DNA of 64,000 nucleotides from Rhizophagus irregularis. Taxonomy: Eukaryota. Shown piece by piece: positions 36,707 through 55,887 of this stretch. The position numbers were made by a program, and so were the translations under genes. The DNA is taken from contig NC_089436.1 in assembly GCF_026210795.1 (NCBI RefSeq), positions 2,666,001 through 2,730,000 of the forward strand. Direction: 5' to 3'. The notes under the pieces are model-generated. The model saw only the letters and a list, made by a program, of their open reading frames with translations, did not search any database and had not been told where the DNA came from. The stretch's first letter is position 1. The number at the start of each line of letters is the position of its first letter.

Positions 36707-37596
36707 AGTAGTTGATTTGTGGGCGCTTTGGAGCCAAAATTGTTGTCGCTTATACGCCTACTTCCACCCTGCTAACTCCCCTTCTGCGGTGTGTTCTCAT
36801 TTTTGGAGCCAAAATTGTTGACGCTCATTTGCCTACATATCCCCCCGCTAACTCCTATTTTTGGCTCCATTTTTTTTCGTCTATATGCCTACATATCACA
36901 TGCTTACTCCCCTCCTGCGACTATTGATATACAGTATATAAAATGAAAGCATCTCTGCGATGATGCCACAGGCATCTCGCCAATTCAGGTCTTTCGCTTT
37001 TATATCATAATATCACTTTTATGCTATCATATTATATGAAACTCCCCTCTGAGGGGAGTTTCATTTTGTCCTATACGTTTTCACACTTATGCCTACATTT
37101 TGACCTATACGTTTACATTCTTATGCATACTCATACACGTCCACATTTACATGACCACACTTATGTGACTTCTTTCTGAGTTACAGGTCAATGTCCATTT
37201 GAATATGTAAGCTAGCTATAGAGATAACTCATTTAAAATAGTCCATCAGTATGCCTTGTCATTGGTTAGTTAAGGGGACAAAAGAATACTGTACCCGTTC
37301 TACTCAAAAAGAATACTGTGGAAAGCACGCATTTGCAATAAGACAGGGTACAACACCCCCAAACCATGCATATACTGCGGTAATGGTACCAACTCATTTT
37401 TACTGATTTGCATTCCATGCGGTCAGCAAAGGATACGTTCAAAGCTTTGGAGAGAAAAAAAAATGTCAATTACAATTAATTAAAAATTCAAAAATCATTT
37501 TTGTAATTGAATATATAGTACGGTTAATAGACGAAAAAATGAGTAGCTTATTAGGTTCTATCTTTGGTTCACTCGGCAATCTCTTTGGCTACTTCC
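36707..37596 (+). repeat. Left terminal inverted repeat (890 bp)
   Basis: Reverse complement of 54993-55887 apart from a few indels and SNPs (e.g. ~36835-36860, ~36930, ~37178); identity ends after CTCTTTGGCTACTTCC. Confidence 0.96.
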
Positions 37597-39415
37597 CGGA
37601 TAGTGGTATCCACTTGAACAATGCACCTTTGGCTGAACAAACCCTTGGTTATGAGGATAACAATAGTGACGCCTTTAGTGAATATGATACTACCACCTCT
37701 TTTTCTACCAGATGGTATTCTGCTAGTAGAGGTTTTCTTTGTTATAGAGAGAGTTCTAAGAGCAATGAAGTTGAATTTTTCAATGGGATAACTTATTGGA
37801 TAGGGCTAAAAAATGAGTTCTCAGAATTATCCCGTGATTGGTTTTTCATTAAAGTTGATAAAAACGAAACTCTAGAAGAAGCTCATAAAAGATATACTAA
37901 TGAATCAATCGCAATTTCGCAAAAAAGTCTTGGTCTTATCGATATGCGAAAAACTGGAACATATGCTGCTACCTCATTACGCCTATTTCAAGACGTAACA
38001 AATGGTCCAATTAAAAGTGCAAGGTTATCTGATGATGAAGAACTCTGGATTTCTAATGCAAGTATTGGCTCAATAATATGGGCAGAGCAGTATGAAGGTA
38101 ATGCGGCACAGTATGATATTAATGAATTTTACCCTTCAGTTTTACTACAAAAGGAAGCACAATGGCCAATAGGACCAGGTGAGTTCAAAATAATTACAAG
38201 TTTAAGTAATAATTTGCAGTATGGAATTTATCGAGTTCATATAGAAGGTCTGCCTAAAAAAAGTTCTTTACAATGCTCTCAATTATTCAGATTTAATCAA
38301 GAGGAGTACTATACGCACTATGATATAGAAATTGCGAGAAAGAATGGATTAGGGGTAGAATTAATTAATATTATGCCAAATGCTTATGTTTTTAATCCAG
38401 AGAATTTAAGAAGCGGCAAATTTTTATTTGAGAATTGGGCTGAAGAACTTATTCCTATAAAACGTCAAGAAGGAATTGCAGGTAAAGTTGCAAAAAATTT
38501 GTTAGTTTCATTATGGGCATTTTATGTGAAAAACCCACGGAAAAATGGAAAAGTAGGCCCTCATCGACGCATGAAGCCATTTATTTTAGCTCTTGGTCGT
38601 AAAACAATAACTAACATAATTAGACCTTTAAAAAATCATGTGAAACGTATCCATACAGACGGTTTTATTTTAACAAATACAATTGATAACAATTTACAGG
38701 TAGGACCAAATACAGGAGAGCTAAAATGTGAAAAAATTGGTCATGTCTTTATAAAAAATTCTATTAACGTTAGTTGGAGCAATACAGAAAAAGAAATTGT
38801 AAATTTTGTAGCTAAACAAGGTAAAAAAGAAAAAGAAATACGCATTCCTAATGAATTAGTTGTGTTAATTTTAGAATATTGTGAGAAATTGTATCCGCTT
38901 TTATTTGTAAATAAACATTGGAATGAAAATGCATGCTGGATGCTATGGAATAAAATAAAGTTAAATGGAATGACAGGTGTTAAATTCTTTTCAATTTTCG
39001 GAGTAGACATAAAACCATTACCATGTAAATATATTACATCTTTAAAAATTTGGGGACAAAAAAAAAGGATATAAATATCCTCTTTTCAGATATATGCAAG
39101 GCATGCCCTAATCTAAAAGATTTGTTCTTTATTGATTGTGGTCATCGACTAGTAAATAATGAAAGTATAGAAAAATCGGTAATAGAATGTAAAAACTTAA
39201 AATCCCTTGGATTAATAAAGCAAAAACGAGTAAGCTCTAACGTAATATTAAAAATTCCGATTTTATGTCCCAGTTTAGAAAAATTAGTAGTTATTCATTG
39301 TCCACGTATAAGAAAAGAAACTATTGAAAAAATGCGAATATTACACCCTTCACTTAAAATAGAGTGTGTTACTGATGAAGGACGCTCTCAGGAGGTAGTT
39401 CAACTCCATCATTAA
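37539..39415 (+). CDS. Reduced family-B DNA polymerase-like domain fused to F-box, with LRR in the -1 frame
   Basis: PolB motif A QYDINEFYPS, motif B AKNLLVSLW, motif C RIHTDGF and GELKCEK. F-box-like IPNELVVLILEYC..LLFVNKHW..MLW. LRRs ICKACPNLKDLFFIDC, ECKNLKSLGL and CPSLEKLVVIHC follow a shift at the A9 run 39058-39066. Confidence 0.7.
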
Positions 39416-39705
39416 CAAGTAAGAGTTCCTCCCTAACAAATCTACATTCAGGCCCGTCAAGTAACTTATAAAGGACCGGTTGATTTTTTTGTACACGAAC
39501 TTCCCAATGTTTATCAAAGCTTATTTATACACATACAATGTGTGAATTATTTTACAAAGTGCATTATTATATTTCTTTTTATTGCAAATTATAATAATAA
39601 AGCTAGTATTGTACTGATAATAATACCATAATACATAAAGTTAATTTATATTTAATGATTATTTACATTTTACAGACAACAAACAACCCAAATATTATTA
39701 GTAAA

Positions 39706-53181: not shown

Positions 53182-54603
53182 CCCTATAAAAAAAGTCTGT
53201 GTGATTTTTGTTGAAAAATCATTCAATTAAATTCACTACGATTTCTGTATATTTGACCATACAATAATTGTGCTAAAAATTGCAATAAATCACACAATTA
53301 TTGCATGGTAATTCATTCAATAATTATCCTATTTTTGACCTGAATTTATACAATTATTGTGTGATTTTTGAGCCAAATTTTTTTAGGCCATATTTTAGGA
53401 ATTATAGGTTAAATTTTACAGTAATAACAGGCAATTTATAAAGTGAAATTATGAATTTTTTTTATTGACTTAAAATATAAAAAATATACACAATATTTCA
53501 TAAATAAAATACTAAATTTGATATAATCATAAATATAAAAATTTGTAAGAAAATAAAATAAATAAAGTATGTTAGTAACATGAAAGTAAATTAGTATTAT
53601 CAAAGAAGAAAGTAAATTATTAGTGTAAGTAAATTATTAGTATTAAATAAAAAAGTATGAAGTTAGTGAAGAAAGCAAATTAGTAGTGTTAAAAAGTACT
53701 AAATTATTAGTGTTAGTAATAAAAAAGTATGAAGTTAGTGAAGAAAGCAAATTAGTAGTGTTAAAAAGTAAATTATTAGTATTAGTAATAAAAAAAAGTA
53801 TGAAGTTAGTGAAGAAAGCAAGTTAGTAACATTAAAATGTAAAAAGTTAGGAAAATAAAAAGATAAAGAACACAAGTTTTTCTTACCTGATATTTTAAAA
53901 GAAAGTTGAAGAAAAGTTAAAAGGTTAAAAAAACATAAACAAAAACATTTCGCGTCGTCATATTTATTTTGACGATCAGATCACGTGATCAACATATATA
54001 ATTTTAAGAGTTGATTTTTACCGCATAATTCTGGCCAAATTATAATTCCGGTCAGAACTAATTGTGTAACCTAATAAAAAGTTTTTGACTTTTTTTTAGT
54101 TACAAGATGATACAAAAATTTCACCAATGGGTCCAGAAGATGCCCATTTATAAGCAATTATGCAGTTGAATTTTATGTAACCTTACTGCATAAATCACTT
54201 TACTTAGGAAAATCTATTTGTAATGGTTAAAAGTGGTCTATTCGACCCTAAAAGTGGTCAAATGTAACCATACAGGTAAGATGGAAAGTAGTATAGTAGG
54301 ATTACCCAAAAATTGCTTTCTGTATCCTAAATTTAAGTCTATTTTCAAGTTGTACAATAATCACAATTTTTATTGTACAAAAATTGAATGTTTTCTGTAT
54401 CCTAAATTTAAGTTGTATAAAAATCACACAAAAATTGAACATTTTCTATATCTTAAATTTAAGTTGTACAAAAATTGCATACTTTTAATATGCTTTGAAA
54501 AACTTCATAGCTATTTTTATCCAAAAATCTGCAATAATTGTACAATTTCCACACGGACTTGAACAAATATTGTACAAAAATTGGATGATTTTTTTTCATA
54601 GGG
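53182..54603. mobile_element. Non-autonomous CACTA/CMC-like element (1422 bp) inserted in pPolB
   Basis: TIRs CCCTATAAAAAAAGTC and GATTTTTTTTCATAGGG; 3-bp TSD ATG (53179-53181, 54604-54606); subterminal ACAA/TTGT-rich repeats; AT-rich with no credible ORF. Removal restores ..KIVHIAH-MTDTSY.. in frame. Confidence 0.92.
53630..53830. repeat. Tandem repeat, ~70-bp unit, about 3 copies
   Basis: aaaaaagtatgaagttagtgaagaaagcaa(a/g)ttagta occurs three times. Confidence 0.85.
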
Positions 54604-54992
54604 ATGGGCAATGTGAACAATTTTAGTTTTAATACCTCCTAATCGGGCCAATTCAGTACTATAAATCTCACTAATTGGTTTTTCATTATCTTCAAACATG
54701 AGAAGAGGATCACGCCTAAAAGGGTAATTTTCTGGAATATTAGCAACGTAATCACGACATAAACTATTATTCCCGACTCTACTTGCCTCTATTAATCTTT
54801 TAGGAGCAGGATCATCTATTAATCGAAATATCATAGTTGAGTCCTCTTCATTGTTCTCATTTTCCCCTTCATCGGCAGTATCATATTCGCTGGAGGAGTC
54901 ACTGATGTTATCACTGCCCTCATTTTCCTCATAGTCTCCATTATCAGGTGGATCATCATGTGAATCTGAAGGTAGGTCACGACCCCAAGGAA

Positions 54993-55887
54993 GGAAGTAG
55001 CCAAAGAGATTGCCGAGTGAACCAAAGATAGAACCTAATAAGCTACTCATTTTTTCGTCTATTAACCGTACTATATATATATTCAATTACAAAAATGATT
55101 TTTGAATTTTTAATTAATTGTAATTGACATTTTTTTTTCTCTCCAAAGCTTTGAACGTATCCTTTGCTGACCGCATGGAATGCAAATCAGTAAAAATGAG
55201 TTGGTACCATTACCGCAGTATATGCATGGTTTGGGGTGTTGTACCCTGTCTTATTGCAAATGCGTGCTTTCCACAGTATTCTTTTTGAGTAGAACGGGTA
55301 CAGTATTCTTTTGTCCCCTTAACTAACCAATGACAAGGCATACTGATGGACTATTTTAAATGAGTTATCTCTATAGCTAGCTTACATATTCAAAATGGAC
55401 ATTGACCTGTAACTCGGAAAGAAGTCACATAAGTGTGGTCATGTAAATGTGGACGTGTATGAGTATGCATAAGAATGTAAACGTATAGGTCAAAATGTAG
55501 GCATAAGTGTGAAAACGTATAGGACAAAATGAAACTCCCCTCAGAGGGGAGTTTCATATAATATGATAGCATAAAAGTGATATTATGATATAAAAGCGAA
55601 AGACCTGAATTGGCGAGATGCCTGTGGCATCATCGCAGAGATGCTTTCATTTTATATATATCAATAGTCGCAGGAGGGGAGTAAGCATGTGATATGTAGG
55701 CATATAGACGAAAAAAAATGGAGCCAAAAATAAGAACTCACCGCAGAAGGGGAGTTAGCAGGCAAATGAGCGTCAACAATTTTGGCTCCAAAAATGAGAA
55801 CACACCGCAGAAGGGGAGTTAGCAGGGTGGAAGTAGGCGTATAAGCGACAACAATTTTGGCTCCAAAGCGCCCACAAATCAACTACT
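54993..55887 (-). repeat. Right terminal inverted repeat (895 bp)
   Basis: Reverse complement of 36707-37596; includes the pPolB ATG at 55050. Confidence 0.96.

What the first reader, a model, noticed from the sequence alone, without database searches (positions are those of the whole stretch)
37539..55050. Both TIRs launch an inward-pointing PolB gene with the same 19-aa N-terminus
Seen: TIR identity extends 58 nt past an ATG, so the left ORF (37539+) and pPolB (55050-) both begin MSSLLGSIFGSLGNLFGYF and share upstream sequence. Weaker similarity continues (NSDAFSEYDT versus ISDSSSEYDT). Both products have PolB motifs but are of different types. Inference: a two-polymerase, invertron-like layout like that of linear plasmids, where the TIR is a portable promoter and leader. 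The amphipathic-looking leader may be a shared targeting signal.
Basis: partly seen in the sequence, partly recalled or inferred. Interest (0 to 1): 0.85.

Follow-up and report, generated by a model that had tools for sequence, protein, structure and literature searches.

The report
Two-polymerase Maverick with shared leader
A 19-kb mobile element in the mycorrhizal fungus Rhizophagus irregularis has long inverted ends that each contain the start of a different DNA-polymerase gene, so both proteins begin alike; related fungi show the same layout, and the shared start is predicted to act as a common targeting tag.

Summary
Window 36707-55887 is a 19,181-bp insertion with a 5-bp target duplication (GCTAT) and ~890-nt terminal inverted repeats (TIRs). 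The TIRs run 58 nt past an ATG at each end, so both terminal genes begin MSSLLGSIFGSLGNLFGYF.

- **Host:** nuclear DNA of Rhizophagus irregularis, not a plasmid.
- **Right gene:** a Maverick/Polinton-type protein-primed PolB. It has a terminal-protein-like domain, a Cys/His motif of the vOTU kind, an EndoVII-like insert, and exonuclease and palm domains. Here it is broken by a MITE and a frameshift.
- **Left gene:** an exonuclease-less palm polymerase whose closest relatives sit in virophage-like viral contigs. It folds like phi29 polymerase and is fused to an F-box/LRR tail.

The fusion is not a one-off. In R. diaphanus both genes lie on one contig and share 57 identical N-terminal residues. 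A second R. irregularis lineage shares an 88%-identical variant. In Gigaspora- and Entrophospora-labelled records the two gene types share a different, zinc-finger N-terminus (98% over 92 aa).

So the TIR acts as a shared first-exon cassette, kept alike at both ends. Promoter activity and targeting are not shown, because no RNA covered the TIR. The leader is a strongly amphipathic, mostly uncharged helix in all 9 variants. I found no printed description. Verdict: new variant of a known kind.

The parts
36702..36706 (.). Left copy of the 5-bp target-site duplication GCTAT
   Evidence: Read directly from the flanks.
36707..37596 (+). Left TIR (890 nt). It begins AGTAGT. It holds three subterminal direct repeats (36727-36892) and a tandem 34-mer (37062-37129). 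It ends 58 nt inside the left gene.
   Evidence: X13 contig record 1 spans exactly this interval.
37251..37480 (+). Frameshifted remnant of a zinc-finger ORF inside the TIR. The C-run at 37356-37360 is C5 on the left and C4 in the right TIR.
   Evidence: The two frames match residues 1-38 (82%) and 38-75 (55%) of P0016, a short-PolB paralogue. The C-run difference is seen.
37539..37596 (+). Shared leader coding stretch, left copy (MSSLLGSIFGSLGNLFGYF)
37539..39415 (+). Left gene: leader, disordered linker, exonuclease-less PolB palm (about aa 63-420), F-box-like region and LRR. The ORF runs 37539-39074. The public model P0001 joins 39024 to 39090, skipping the A9 frame change.
   Evidence: Pfam PF03175, E 2.5e-6. 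P0001 is 99% identical. The model aligns to phi29 DNAP (Z 22.0) and to FBXL17/SKP2-type LRR (Z 11-13.8). D193, K319 and D374 are invariant in 19 sequences. Frame change.
39603..42334 (-). Internal gene with a weak AAA-ATPase match, transcribed and spliced; likely cargo
   Evidence: Weak Pfam AAA hit. Spliced contigs in the RNA-like run X18: 41321>41408 and 40734>40809, with CT..AC ends.
46124..47662 (-). Crinkler-N-domain gene, covered at high depth by RNA-like contigs; likely cargo
   Evidence: PF20147, E 1.4e-28. Spliced contigs 47163>47236 in X18 and X19.
48043..48594 (+). Stand-alone retropepsin-like ORF
   Evidence: Atlas feature hit scoring 0.95 to RVP_2 clusters. This is a lead only.
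48797..49222 (-). Small ORF just downstream of the pPolB, conserved in another glomeromycete
   Evidence: By eye, the same sequence appears at the C-end of the Racocetra pPolB model P0040. No Pfam or Atlas family.
49325..52558 (-). pPolB, main body: C2H2 and EndoVII-like zinc insert, exonuclease and palm domains
   Evidence: PF02945, E 2e-7. 100% identical to P0025, and 35-42% to PF03175-bearing proteins of similar length. Polymerase motifs read by eye.
52549..53178 (-). pPolB segment holding part of the TP-like domain and the vOTU-like Cys motif. It is out of frame with the main body (frameshift near 52552).
   Evidence: Relatives P0026 and P0145 read straight through.
53182..54603 (.). High-copy MITE inserted in the pPolB. 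Its ends are CCCTATGAAAAAAA / TTTTTTTATAGGG, flanked by a duplicated CAT.
   Evidence: Contig depth is 3,700-6,900 there against about 20 beside it in X15. Other copies run IAH-M without a break.
54604..55050 (-). pPolB first segment: leader, acidic linker and start of the TP-like domain
   Evidence: The model of paralogue P0145 shows a helix at 2-16, disorder at 17-72 and a domain at 100-222 that matches Y-family little-finger/PAD domains.
54993..55887 (-). Right TIR (895 nt)
55888..55892 (.). Right copy of the target-site duplication GCTAT

Best explanation
This is a decayed chromosomal copy of a Maverick/Polinton-derived element of arbuscular mycorrhizal fungi whose long TIRs contain the start codon and N-terminal coding part of both end genes; the two ends are likely kept alike by concerted evolution.

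Shown:
- It is a 19,181-bp insertion with a 5-bp target duplication, AG termini and ~890-nt TIRs.
- The right gene is a Polinton-type protein-primed PolB.
- The left gene is an exonuclease-less palm polymerase whose closest relatives sit in virophage-like viral contigs. It has lost the TP and vOTU domains and gained an F-box/LRR tail.
- The N-termini of the two gene types match each other within an element lineage in three lineages. The module is an amphipathic helix plus acidic linker in Rhizophagus, and a zinc finger plus P/Q linker in the Gigaspora/Entrophospora-labelled type.
- The shared part ends just before the first folded domain of each protein.

Inferred:
- The TIR also supplies a common promoter, so the two polymerases would be co-expressed.
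- The shared module would bring both proteins to one place. For the helix, probably a membrane or lipid surface; for the zinc finger, probably DNA.
- If the vOTU-like domain cuts behind the TP, as proposed in print for Polinton pPolBs, the module would stay on the DNA-linked terminal protein.
- In this copy the identity has shrunk to 19 codons, and both genes carry lesions, so the copy is probably no longer autonomous.
For: **Boundaries.** TIRs and TSD. GC is 34.4% inside against 27% and 25% outside.

**Host.** P0001 is 99% identical and named R. irregularis DAOM 197198, on a 2.76-Mb contig.

**Right gene.**
- EndoVII hit.
- Relatives carry PF03175 plus PF02945.
- Insect Maverick POLBs show the same EndoVII hit (PMC5803895, table 3 passage).
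- In the model of paralogue P0145, residues ~98-226 match little-finger/PAD domains of Y-family polymerases in 10 of the top 10 rows (Z 6.6-8.8). This is the fold reported for the TP domain of eukaryotic pPolBs (PMC11071308, passages).

**Left gene.**
- phi29 DNAP fills the top 9 Foldseek rows (E 1e-11). VIA gives Z 22.0 with 328 residues aligned.
- The family profile hits phi29 motifs B-C at E 1.7e-4.
- 7 of 76 pattern-matched stretches in IMG/VR encode relatives. L003 also carries a Sputnik-type MCP, an rve-chromo integrase, VLTF3 and a DUF5906 protein.
- The catalytic D193, K319 and D374 are invariant in 19 sequences.
- The C-terminus matches FBXL17, FBXL2, Dia2 and SKP2 (Z 11-13.8). F-box-like Pfam hit at E 1.6e-6 in P0013.

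**Sharing in other copies.**
- P0002 (short) and P0026 (pPolB) lie on contigs of the same length (248,517 nt), with locus tags ten apart. Their first 57 aa are 100% identical.
- P0004 and P0033: 88%.
- P0149 and P0015: 98% over 92 aa, with a different module.
- 5 of 5 further pPolB models that reach the N-terminus begin with the leader, as do 4 short fragments.

**Leader.** Hydrophobic moment 0.60, maximal at exactly 100 degrees, reached by 0 of 10,000 shuffles. All 9 variants score 0.55-0.72 on the same face with 0-3 charges.
Against: - No transcript evidence for the TIR promoter or for the ATG. RNA-like runs gave only small contigs inside the left gene (38627-38948 in X19, 38705-38954 in X20) and none on the TIR.
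- No integrase, capsid, packaging ATPase or protease was found in this copy by Pfam. 15 large ORFs and 40 of the 111 ORFs of 50 aa or more were scanned. How the element moves is therefore open.
- The sharing in other species rests on predicted proteins. I could not read their DNA, so TIRs there are inferred.
- P0149 and P0015 come from records labelled as different genera. They show a shared module, not one element.
- In the window itself the left gene departs after codon 19. A similar variant exists in R. diaphanus (P0003), so long sharing is not obligatory.
- The window's left protein has Ala where its relatives in the alignment have Gly, in the SLWG motif. Both genes have frame lesions. Function in this copy is doubtful.
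- The TP-domain model has low overall confidence (mean pLDDT 49.4), and Z values under 8 can reflect a common fold.
- hhalign linked the Cys-motif regions of the two polymerase types only weakly (E 0.0017, probability 16%).
Confidence: 0.7

Rival explanations
1. The shared N-terminus is only a by-product of TIR homogenisation. Whatever lies in the repeat is copied to both ends, and the leader does nothing useful in one or both proteins.
For: - The shared module differs completely between lineages: helix versus zinc finger.
- The window's left gene lost the match after codon 19.
- The linker behind the leader is poorly conserved.
- The module is predicted disordered apart from one helix.
Against: - The amphipathic periodicity survives conservative replacements in 9 of 9 variants, including the Glomus cerebriforme protein.
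- Each of the two alternative modules is a typical binding or localisation unit.
- The shared part stops just before the first folded domain in each protein.
Confidence: 0.3
2. It is an integrated linear plasmid (invertron) of the kalilo or pGKL kind, not a transposon-like Maverick derivative.
For: - Long TIRs.
- Two convergent polymerase genes that begin in the repeats.
- No integrase or capsid genes found.
- A terminal AGTAGT triplet repeat, as suits slide-back priming (the mechanism is recalled).
Against: - A clean 5-bp target duplication.
- A nuclear setting among Sel1/kinase genes.
- The pPolB carries an EndoVII-like insert and a Cys/His motif like those of Maverick POLBs.
- The second gene is a PolB, not a T7-type RNA polymerase.
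- Mavericks are reported as expanded in Glomerales (PMC11952901, passages).
Confidence: 0.1
3. The left fusion is a one-off rearrangement of this copy, for example a duplicated pPolB 5' end joined to an unrelated gene.
For: Only 19 codons are shared here, and this copy is decayed.
Against: - 4 of the 5 Glomeraceae short-PolB proteins whose N-terminus I read carry the leader, and the fifth (Glomus cerebriforme) carries a variant of it.
- The R. diaphanus pair shares 57 aa.
- An analogous pair exists with a different module.
Confidence: 0.03

Closest known systems
Maverick/Polinton self-synthesising elements (Kapitonov and Jurka 2006; Pritham et al. 2007 - both recalled, not readable here)
   Same: - Size of 15-20 kb, TIRs of hundreds of nt, 5'-AG ends and a short (5-6 bp) target duplication.
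- A protein-primed PolB with a TP-like domain, a vOTU-like Cys/His motif, an exonuclease and a palm domain, plus the EndoVII-like insert also seen in insect Maverick POLBs.
   Different: - No rve integrase, DJR capsid, packaging ATPase or protease detected in this copy.
- A second polymerase at the other end.
- The TIRs reach into both coding regions.
- Cargo genes (Crinkler-N gene, AAA-like gene).
Mavirus-type virophage pPolB (TP-vOTU-palm, exonuclease lost; PMC11071308, passages read)
   Same: - The left gene's palm domain is the closest kin of polymerases in virophage-like contigs (25-31% identity, E 2e-14 to 3e-41).
- Same RIHTDG motif C.
- No conserved exonuclease residues.
   Different: - The fungal protein lacks the N-terminal TP and vOTU parts, which are replaced by the TIR-encoded module.
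- It lacks the ~40-aa insert between motifs B and C.
- It carries an F-box/LRR tail.
Linear mitochondrial plasmids kalilo/maranhar and other invertrons (recalled; my search found no open text)
   Same: Long TIRs with two convergent polymerase genes that begin in or near the repeats; protein-primed replication.
   Different: There the second gene is an RNA polymerase. The plasmids are free, organellar and lack target duplications.
pPolB-S1H fusions (Tlr1-like helicases) of PLVs and transpovirons (PMC11071308, PMC5499653 abstract)
   Same: An exonuclease-less pPolB derivative fused at its C-end to another functional domain.
   Different: Those keep TP and vOTU and add a helicase. This one drops both and adds a ubiquitin-ligase adaptor module.

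Membership tests
Maverick/Polinton | [quoted passage not shown] | tested here: met
   - Right gene: relatives carry PF03175.
- Exonuclease and polymerase motifs read by eye.
- TP-like domain in the model of paralogue P0145.
- In this copy the gene is interrupted.
Maverick/Polinton | Retrovirus-like (rve) integrase | tested here: not met
   No PF00665 hit among the 15 large ORFs (cut-off E 0.01) or among 40 of the 111 ORFs of 50 aa or more (cut-off E 0.05). A very decayed or intron-split gene could be missed.
Maverick/Polinton | Long TIRs and a 5-6 bp target-site duplication | tested here: met
   TIRs of 890/895 nt and TSD GCTAT.
Maverick/Polinton | Virion module (DJR major capsid, minor capsid, FtsK-type ATPase, adenain-like protease) | tested here: inconclusive
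   No Pfam hits. Pfam is weak for these proteins, and no structure search of the internal ORFs was done. The Glomus Polinton is described in print as lacking a detectable MCP (PMC7805220 passage).
Mavirus-like exonuclease-less pPolB | PolB palm with motifs A, B and C, and no exonuclease active site | tested here: met
   - phi29 match at Z 22.0.
- Invariant D193, K319, T373 and D374; no invariant acidic residue before E167.
Mavirus-like exonuclease-less pPolB | N-terminal TP and vOTU domains | tested here: not met
   - The viral relatives keep an invariant N..C..C and HY motif pair.
- The fungal proteins lack that ~230-aa region.
- Residues 1-62 are modelled as disordered.
F-box/LRR (FBXL) substrate adaptors | F-box helices followed by leucine-rich repeats | tested here: met
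   - PF12937 at E 1.6e-6 in P0013, but only 0.014 in P0001.
- Model residues 450-600 match FBXL17, FBXL2, Dia2 and SKP2 at Z 11-13.8.
- Skp1 binding not tested.
Invertron-type linear plasmid | Free linear molecule with 5'-linked terminal protein | not testable with these tools
   The copy seen is chromosomal with a TSD. Free forms cannot be assessed from contigs.
ALPS-type amphipathic lipid-packing sensor helix (definition recalled) | Amphipathic helix with bulky hydrophobic residues and a Ser/Thr/Gly-rich, almost uncharged polar face | tested here: inconclusive
   Composition and hydrophobic moment fit: 0 charged, 9 S/G/N and 10 bulky hydrophobic residues out of 19, with a moment of 0.60. At 19 aa it is at the short end, and membrane binding is untested.

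The most novel reading that the evidence does not exclude
AM-fungal Mavericks have become capsid-less, two-polymerase replicons in which the TIR works as a shared first-exon cassette. Any module that lands in the repeat (a zinc finger, an amphipathic helix) is automatically installed on both the TP-bearing replicase and a palm-only polymerase that doubles as an SCF F-box adaptor. The leader tethers the DNA-linked terminal protein and the F-box polymerase to one site. There the adaptor ubiquitylates a host replisome or defence factor, while the replicase's own vOTU domain acts as the opposing deubiquitinase or processing protease.
Probability: 0.15. Interest if true: 0.85.

Novelty: new variant of a known kind. 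Interest (0 to 1): 0.62.

Why it matters
Mavericks/Polintons are treated as having one polymerase and non-coding ends. Here the ends carry coding sequence, and concerted evolution of the repeat forces two unrelated replication proteins to share, and to swap, their N-terminal module.

This gives a simple route by which a mobile element can retarget two proteins at once. It also reveals a palm polymerase related to those of virophage-like contigs inside a fungal nuclear element, fused to a ubiquitin-ligase adaptor. That fusion appears in proteins from records labelled with four glomeromycete genera.

Mavericks are reported as specifically expanded in Glomerales, so their gene content bears on genome evolution in a major plant symbiont. 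The leader, the polymerase activity and the Skp1 binding are all directly testable.

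Tried and rejected
- **Whole-genome search.** No genome is held for this window, so other copies could not be read as DNA.
- **RNA evidence.** No listed holder is on record as RNA.
  - X15, X16 and X17 behaved as DNA, with flat cover.
  - X18 and X19 showed spliced contigs and X20 patchy cover. They covered the cargo genes, but only fragments of the left gene and nothing on the TIR or leader.
  - Neither transcription from the TIR nor its absence can be claimed.
- **Viral contigs.** A scan with the large pPolB (P0026) gave 64 pattern matches, none confirmed.
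- **Metagenome contigs.** A scan for a degenerate leader pattern gave 0 matches. The second scan this allowed was not used.
- **Mitochondrial code.** Reading under table 4 (TGA=W) did not join the pPolB pieces, and no tRNA genes were found. I dropped a mitochondrial origin.
- **Profile-profile comparison.** Comparing the two polymerase families gave only a weak match in the Cys-motif region and none in the palm.
- **BLASTP.** The two window-type proteins are alike only at the N-terminus.
- **Internal ORFs.** The Atlas look-up of ORF 48797-49222 gave nothing usable (best score 0.88).
- **Earlier findings of this scan.** Nothing by place, words or sequence.
- **Papers not held.** Kapitonov and Jurka 2006 could not be read, and Pritham et al. 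2007 was not looked up. I cannot say whether the published Glomus Polinton/Maverick is this family.
- **Supplements.** The TE-library supplements of PMC11952901, PMC11075540 and PMC8647823 were not opened. They may hold a consensus of this family.
- **Searches for a prior description** of a two-polymerase Maverick, a PolB-F-box fusion or TIR-encoded shared N-termini found none.

Full report
**1. The observation**

The window holds a pair of inverted repeats at 36707-37596 and 54993-55887. Aligned, the arms are 890 and 895 nt with 877 of 902 columns identical. Most differences lie in one diverged subterminal repeat, plus four short indels and one mismatch further in.

Identity continues for exactly 58 nt past an ATG on each side. 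That stretch has 2 exact matches in the window against 0 expected in 100 shuffles. Both inward-pointing frames begin MSSLLGSIFGSLGNLFGYF. A weaker 39-nt patch (82%) encodes ..SEYDT.. in both (pair I9).

A metagenome contig of run X13 spans exactly 36707-37596, as a collapsed repeat with those edges would.

**2. What the unit is**

- The repeats start AGTAGT.
- They are flanked by the same five bases, GCTAT, on both sides.
- The unit is 19,181 bp with 34.4% GC, against 27% and 25% in the flanks.
- The surroundings are Sel1-repeat and kinase genes and a hAT transposase. There are no tRNA genes.
- The left protein is 99% identical to a named protein of Rhizophagus irregularis DAOM 197198 on a 2.76-Mb contig.

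So this is a nuclear insertion with a target-site duplication, not a plasmid or an organelle genome. Reading under the mitochondrial code did not join the gene pieces.

**3. The right gene**

It lies in three pieces: 55050-54604, 53178-52549 and 52558-49325.

- Between the first two pieces sits a 1,422-nt element with short inverted ends and a duplicated CAT. Contig depth is 3,700-6,900 there, against about 20 next to it, so it is a high-copy MITE.
- The second and third pieces overlap in different frames.
- Relatives from R. diaphanus and other R. irregularis copies read through both places. This copy's polymerase is therefore broken twice.

The protein has an EndoVII-like zinc insert. Relatives of similar length carry PF03175 together with PF02945. 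Insect Maverick POLBs show the same pair (PMC5803895, table passage).

A model of the first 505 residues of a paralogue (P0145) is poor overall (mean pLDDT 49.4). It shows a helix at 2-16, disorder to residue 72, and a confident domain at about 100-222. That domain matched little-finger/PAD domains of Y-family polymerases in all of the top ten rows (Z 6.6-8.8). Krupovic and colleagues report this fold for the terminal-protein domain of eukaryotic protein-primed PolBs, followed by a vOTU protease domain (PMC11071308, passages). A Cys motif and a His motif of that kind are visible by eye in the window's protein.

I read the right gene as a Maverick/Polinton-type pPolB.

**4. The left gene**

The ORF 37539-39074 has a weak PF03175 hit.

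*Relatives.* Its family includes proteins from records labelled Rhizophagus, Glomus cerebriforme, Diversispora and Entrophospora. Most of these carry an F-box and LRR tail. More distant relatives of 600-680 aa lack the tail. They add an N-terminal region with an invariant N..C..C and HY motif pair.

*Viral kin.* Seven such relatives lie on IMG/VR viral contigs. One contig, L003, has short inverted ends, a Sputnik-type major capsid protein, an rve-chromo integrase next to the polymerase, VLTF3 and a DUF5906 protein. L002 has an rve-chromo integrase and an A32-like ATPase. This is the gene set of mavirus-like virophages, whose polymerase is described as TP-vOTU-palm without an exonuclease (PMC11071308).

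*Structure.* The model of the fungal protein (mean pLDDT 73.6) is confident over 63-415 and 500-592.
- It matches phi29 DNA polymerase in the top nine Foldseek rows (E 1e-11) and at Z 22.0 over 328 residues.
- Its tail matches FBXL17, FBXL2, Dia2 and SKP2 (Z 11-13.8).

*Active site.* The family profile aligns to phi29 motifs B and C (E 1.7e-4). D193, K319, T373 and D374 are invariant in 19 sequences, with no invariant acidic residue upstream of E167.

So the left product is a palm-only polymerase akin to those of virophage-like contigs. It has lost the TP and vOTU domains and gained a ubiquitin-ligase adaptor tail.

*Lesions in this copy.* An A9 run (39058-39066) shifts the frame inside a segment that relatives translate. 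The public model removes it as a GT..AG intron. The contigs listed for three runs (X13, X16, X17) span the run without gaps. The window's protein also has Ala where its relatives in the alignment have Gly, in the SLWG motif.

Apart from the N-terminus, the two polymerases of the element are not detectably alike by BLASTP.

**5. Is the fusion a one-off?**

No.

- The leader opens four Rhizophagus short-PolB proteins. A variant opens the Glomus cerebriforme one.
- It also opens five further pPolB models and four short fragments.
- In R. diaphanus the short gene (P0002) and the pPolB (P0026) come from contigs of the same length, 248,517 nt, with locus tags ten apart. Their first 57 residues are identical.
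- A second R. irregularis lineage pairs P0004 with P0033 at 88%, while P0004 is only 59% identical to P0002. The N-termini therefore group by element lineage, not by gene type.
- In these pairs the shared part ends at ..SSEYDTA, just before the first folded domain of each protein.

A search with a profile of the pPolB N-terminus (2,988 hits at E up to 0.001) gave an independent replicate. A pPolB fragment from a record labelled Gigaspora rosea (P0149) and the short PolB-F-box protein from a record labelled Entrophospora sp. (P0015) share their first 92 residues at 98%, then diverge. That module is a zinc finger plus a P/Q-rich linker, unrelated to the Rhizophagus leader. Other pPolB fragments (P0158, P0159, P0167) begin like the Diversispora short proteins (read by eye).

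Fittingly, the window's TIR contains a frameshifted remnant of a zinc-finger ORF just upstream of the leader ATG. It matches the start of P0016, another short-PolB paralogue. Its C-run differs between the two TIRs.

**6. How it most likely works**

*Shown:* the repeat includes the 5' flank and the first codons of both end genes, and the two N-termini change together within lineages.

*Inferred:*
- The repeats are kept alike by concerted evolution. Panhandle repair during protein-primed replication, or gene conversion between the arms, would do this. Both are established for other TIR replicons (recalled).
- The repeat also gives both genes one promoter.
- The shared module places both proteins at one site.

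The leader has a hydrophobic moment of 0.60 that peaks at exactly 100 degrees, and 0 of 10,000 shuffles reach it. It has no charged residue and a Ser/Gly/Asn polar face. All nine variants keep the same face. This resembles lipid-packing-sensor helices (recalled) and suggests a membrane or lipid surface. The zinc-finger module in the other lineage suggests DNA.

If the vOTU domain cuts behind the TP, as proposed in print, the module would remain on the DNA-linked terminal protein.

What the TP-less second polymerase does is open. Its conserved active site argues for catalysis, and its tail for recruiting SCF.

**7. What is not shown**

- No RNA-like contig covered the TIR or the leader. RNA-like runs gave only 250-345-nt contigs inside the left gene and strong, spliced cover of the Crinkler-N and AAA-like cargo genes.
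- No integrase or virion gene was found in this copy, so its means of insertion is unknown.
- The layouts in other species rest on predicted proteins. Their DNA could not be read here.

**8. Comparison with what is known**

The unit shares its size, TIRs, AG ends, short target duplication and polymerase type with Mavericks/Polintons. These are reported as expanded in Glomerales (PMC11952901, PMC8647823, PMC11075540; passages). Those found in Glomus intraradices are described as lacking a detectable capsid gene (PMC7805220, passage).

It fails the integrase criterion in this copy. It adds a second polymerase and coding TIRs.

I found no description of a two-polymerase Maverick, a PolB-F-box fusion or TIR-encoded shared N-termini in seven literature searches. 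The two founding papers were not read, and no TE-library supplements were opened.

**9. Verdict**

- Novelty: a new variant of a known kind.
- Interest is moderate to high for specialists in mobile elements and eukaryotic DNA viruses.
- This particular copy is decayed and, at 95% identity, looks single-copy in the strain. That rests on the flat depth in X15 and on the X13 TIR contig at depth 18.6 against 8-13 for its unique contigs.

Noticed in passing
window 53182-54603: A 1.4-kb MITE with ends CCCTATGAAAAAAA / TTTTTTTATAGGG and a duplicated CAT. Contig depth is roughly 200-300 times that of its neighbours, so it is a very abundant family in this genome.
   Followed up: partly
window 37251-37480 and the mirror copy in the right TIR: A zinc-finger ORF remnant, frameshifted in both TIRs. 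The C-run differs in length (C5 versus C4). It is homologous to the N-terminus of the short-PolB paralogue P0016. It suggests an older TIR-encoded start that the MSSLL leader replaced.
   Followed up: partly
window 46124-47662 (-): A Crinkler-N-domain gene inside the element. It has very high depth and a spliced 72-nt intron in the RNA-like runs X18 and X19. Many diverged paralogous contigs also map here.
   Followed up: partly
window 39603-42334 (-): A gene with a weak AAA-ATPase match and two spliced introns in X18. The C-terminal part looked like a PD-(D/E)xK nuclease to me by eye; this was not tested.
   Followed up: no
window 48043-48594 (+) and 48797-49222 (-): Two convergent ORFs that both end in IYP(E/K)GTK. 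The first looks like a stand-alone retropepsin (Atlas lead). The second recurs at the C-end of a Racocetra pPolB gene model (P0040), so it is probably a conserved element gene of unknown function.
   Followed up: partly
window 42668-42802: A 32-nt inverted repeat pair (94%) lies in a stretch with about five-fold raised contig depth (bin 42386-43039). This is probably another small repeat element.
   Followed up: no
window 36727-36892 and 37062-37129: Subterminal direct repeats in the TIR: three copies of a 35-nt unit spaced 56-75 nt apart, and a tandem 34-mer. They are candidate protein-binding sites.
   Followed up: no
window 14195-15889 (+): hAT transposase pieces (dimerisation and RNase-H-like domains) among Sel1-repeat and kinase genes.
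   Followed up: no
P0149 and P0015 (proteins, not in the window): A 92-aa N-terminal module is 98% identical between records labelled Gigaspora rosea and Entrophospora sp. Such near-identity across genera could mean recent transfer or cross-contamination of those assemblies.
   Followed up: no
L003 1-13840: A virophage-like IMG/VR contig with inverted repeats at 297-414 and 13736-13840. Its first ORF (DUF5906) starts at 402, inside the repeat.
   Followed up: no
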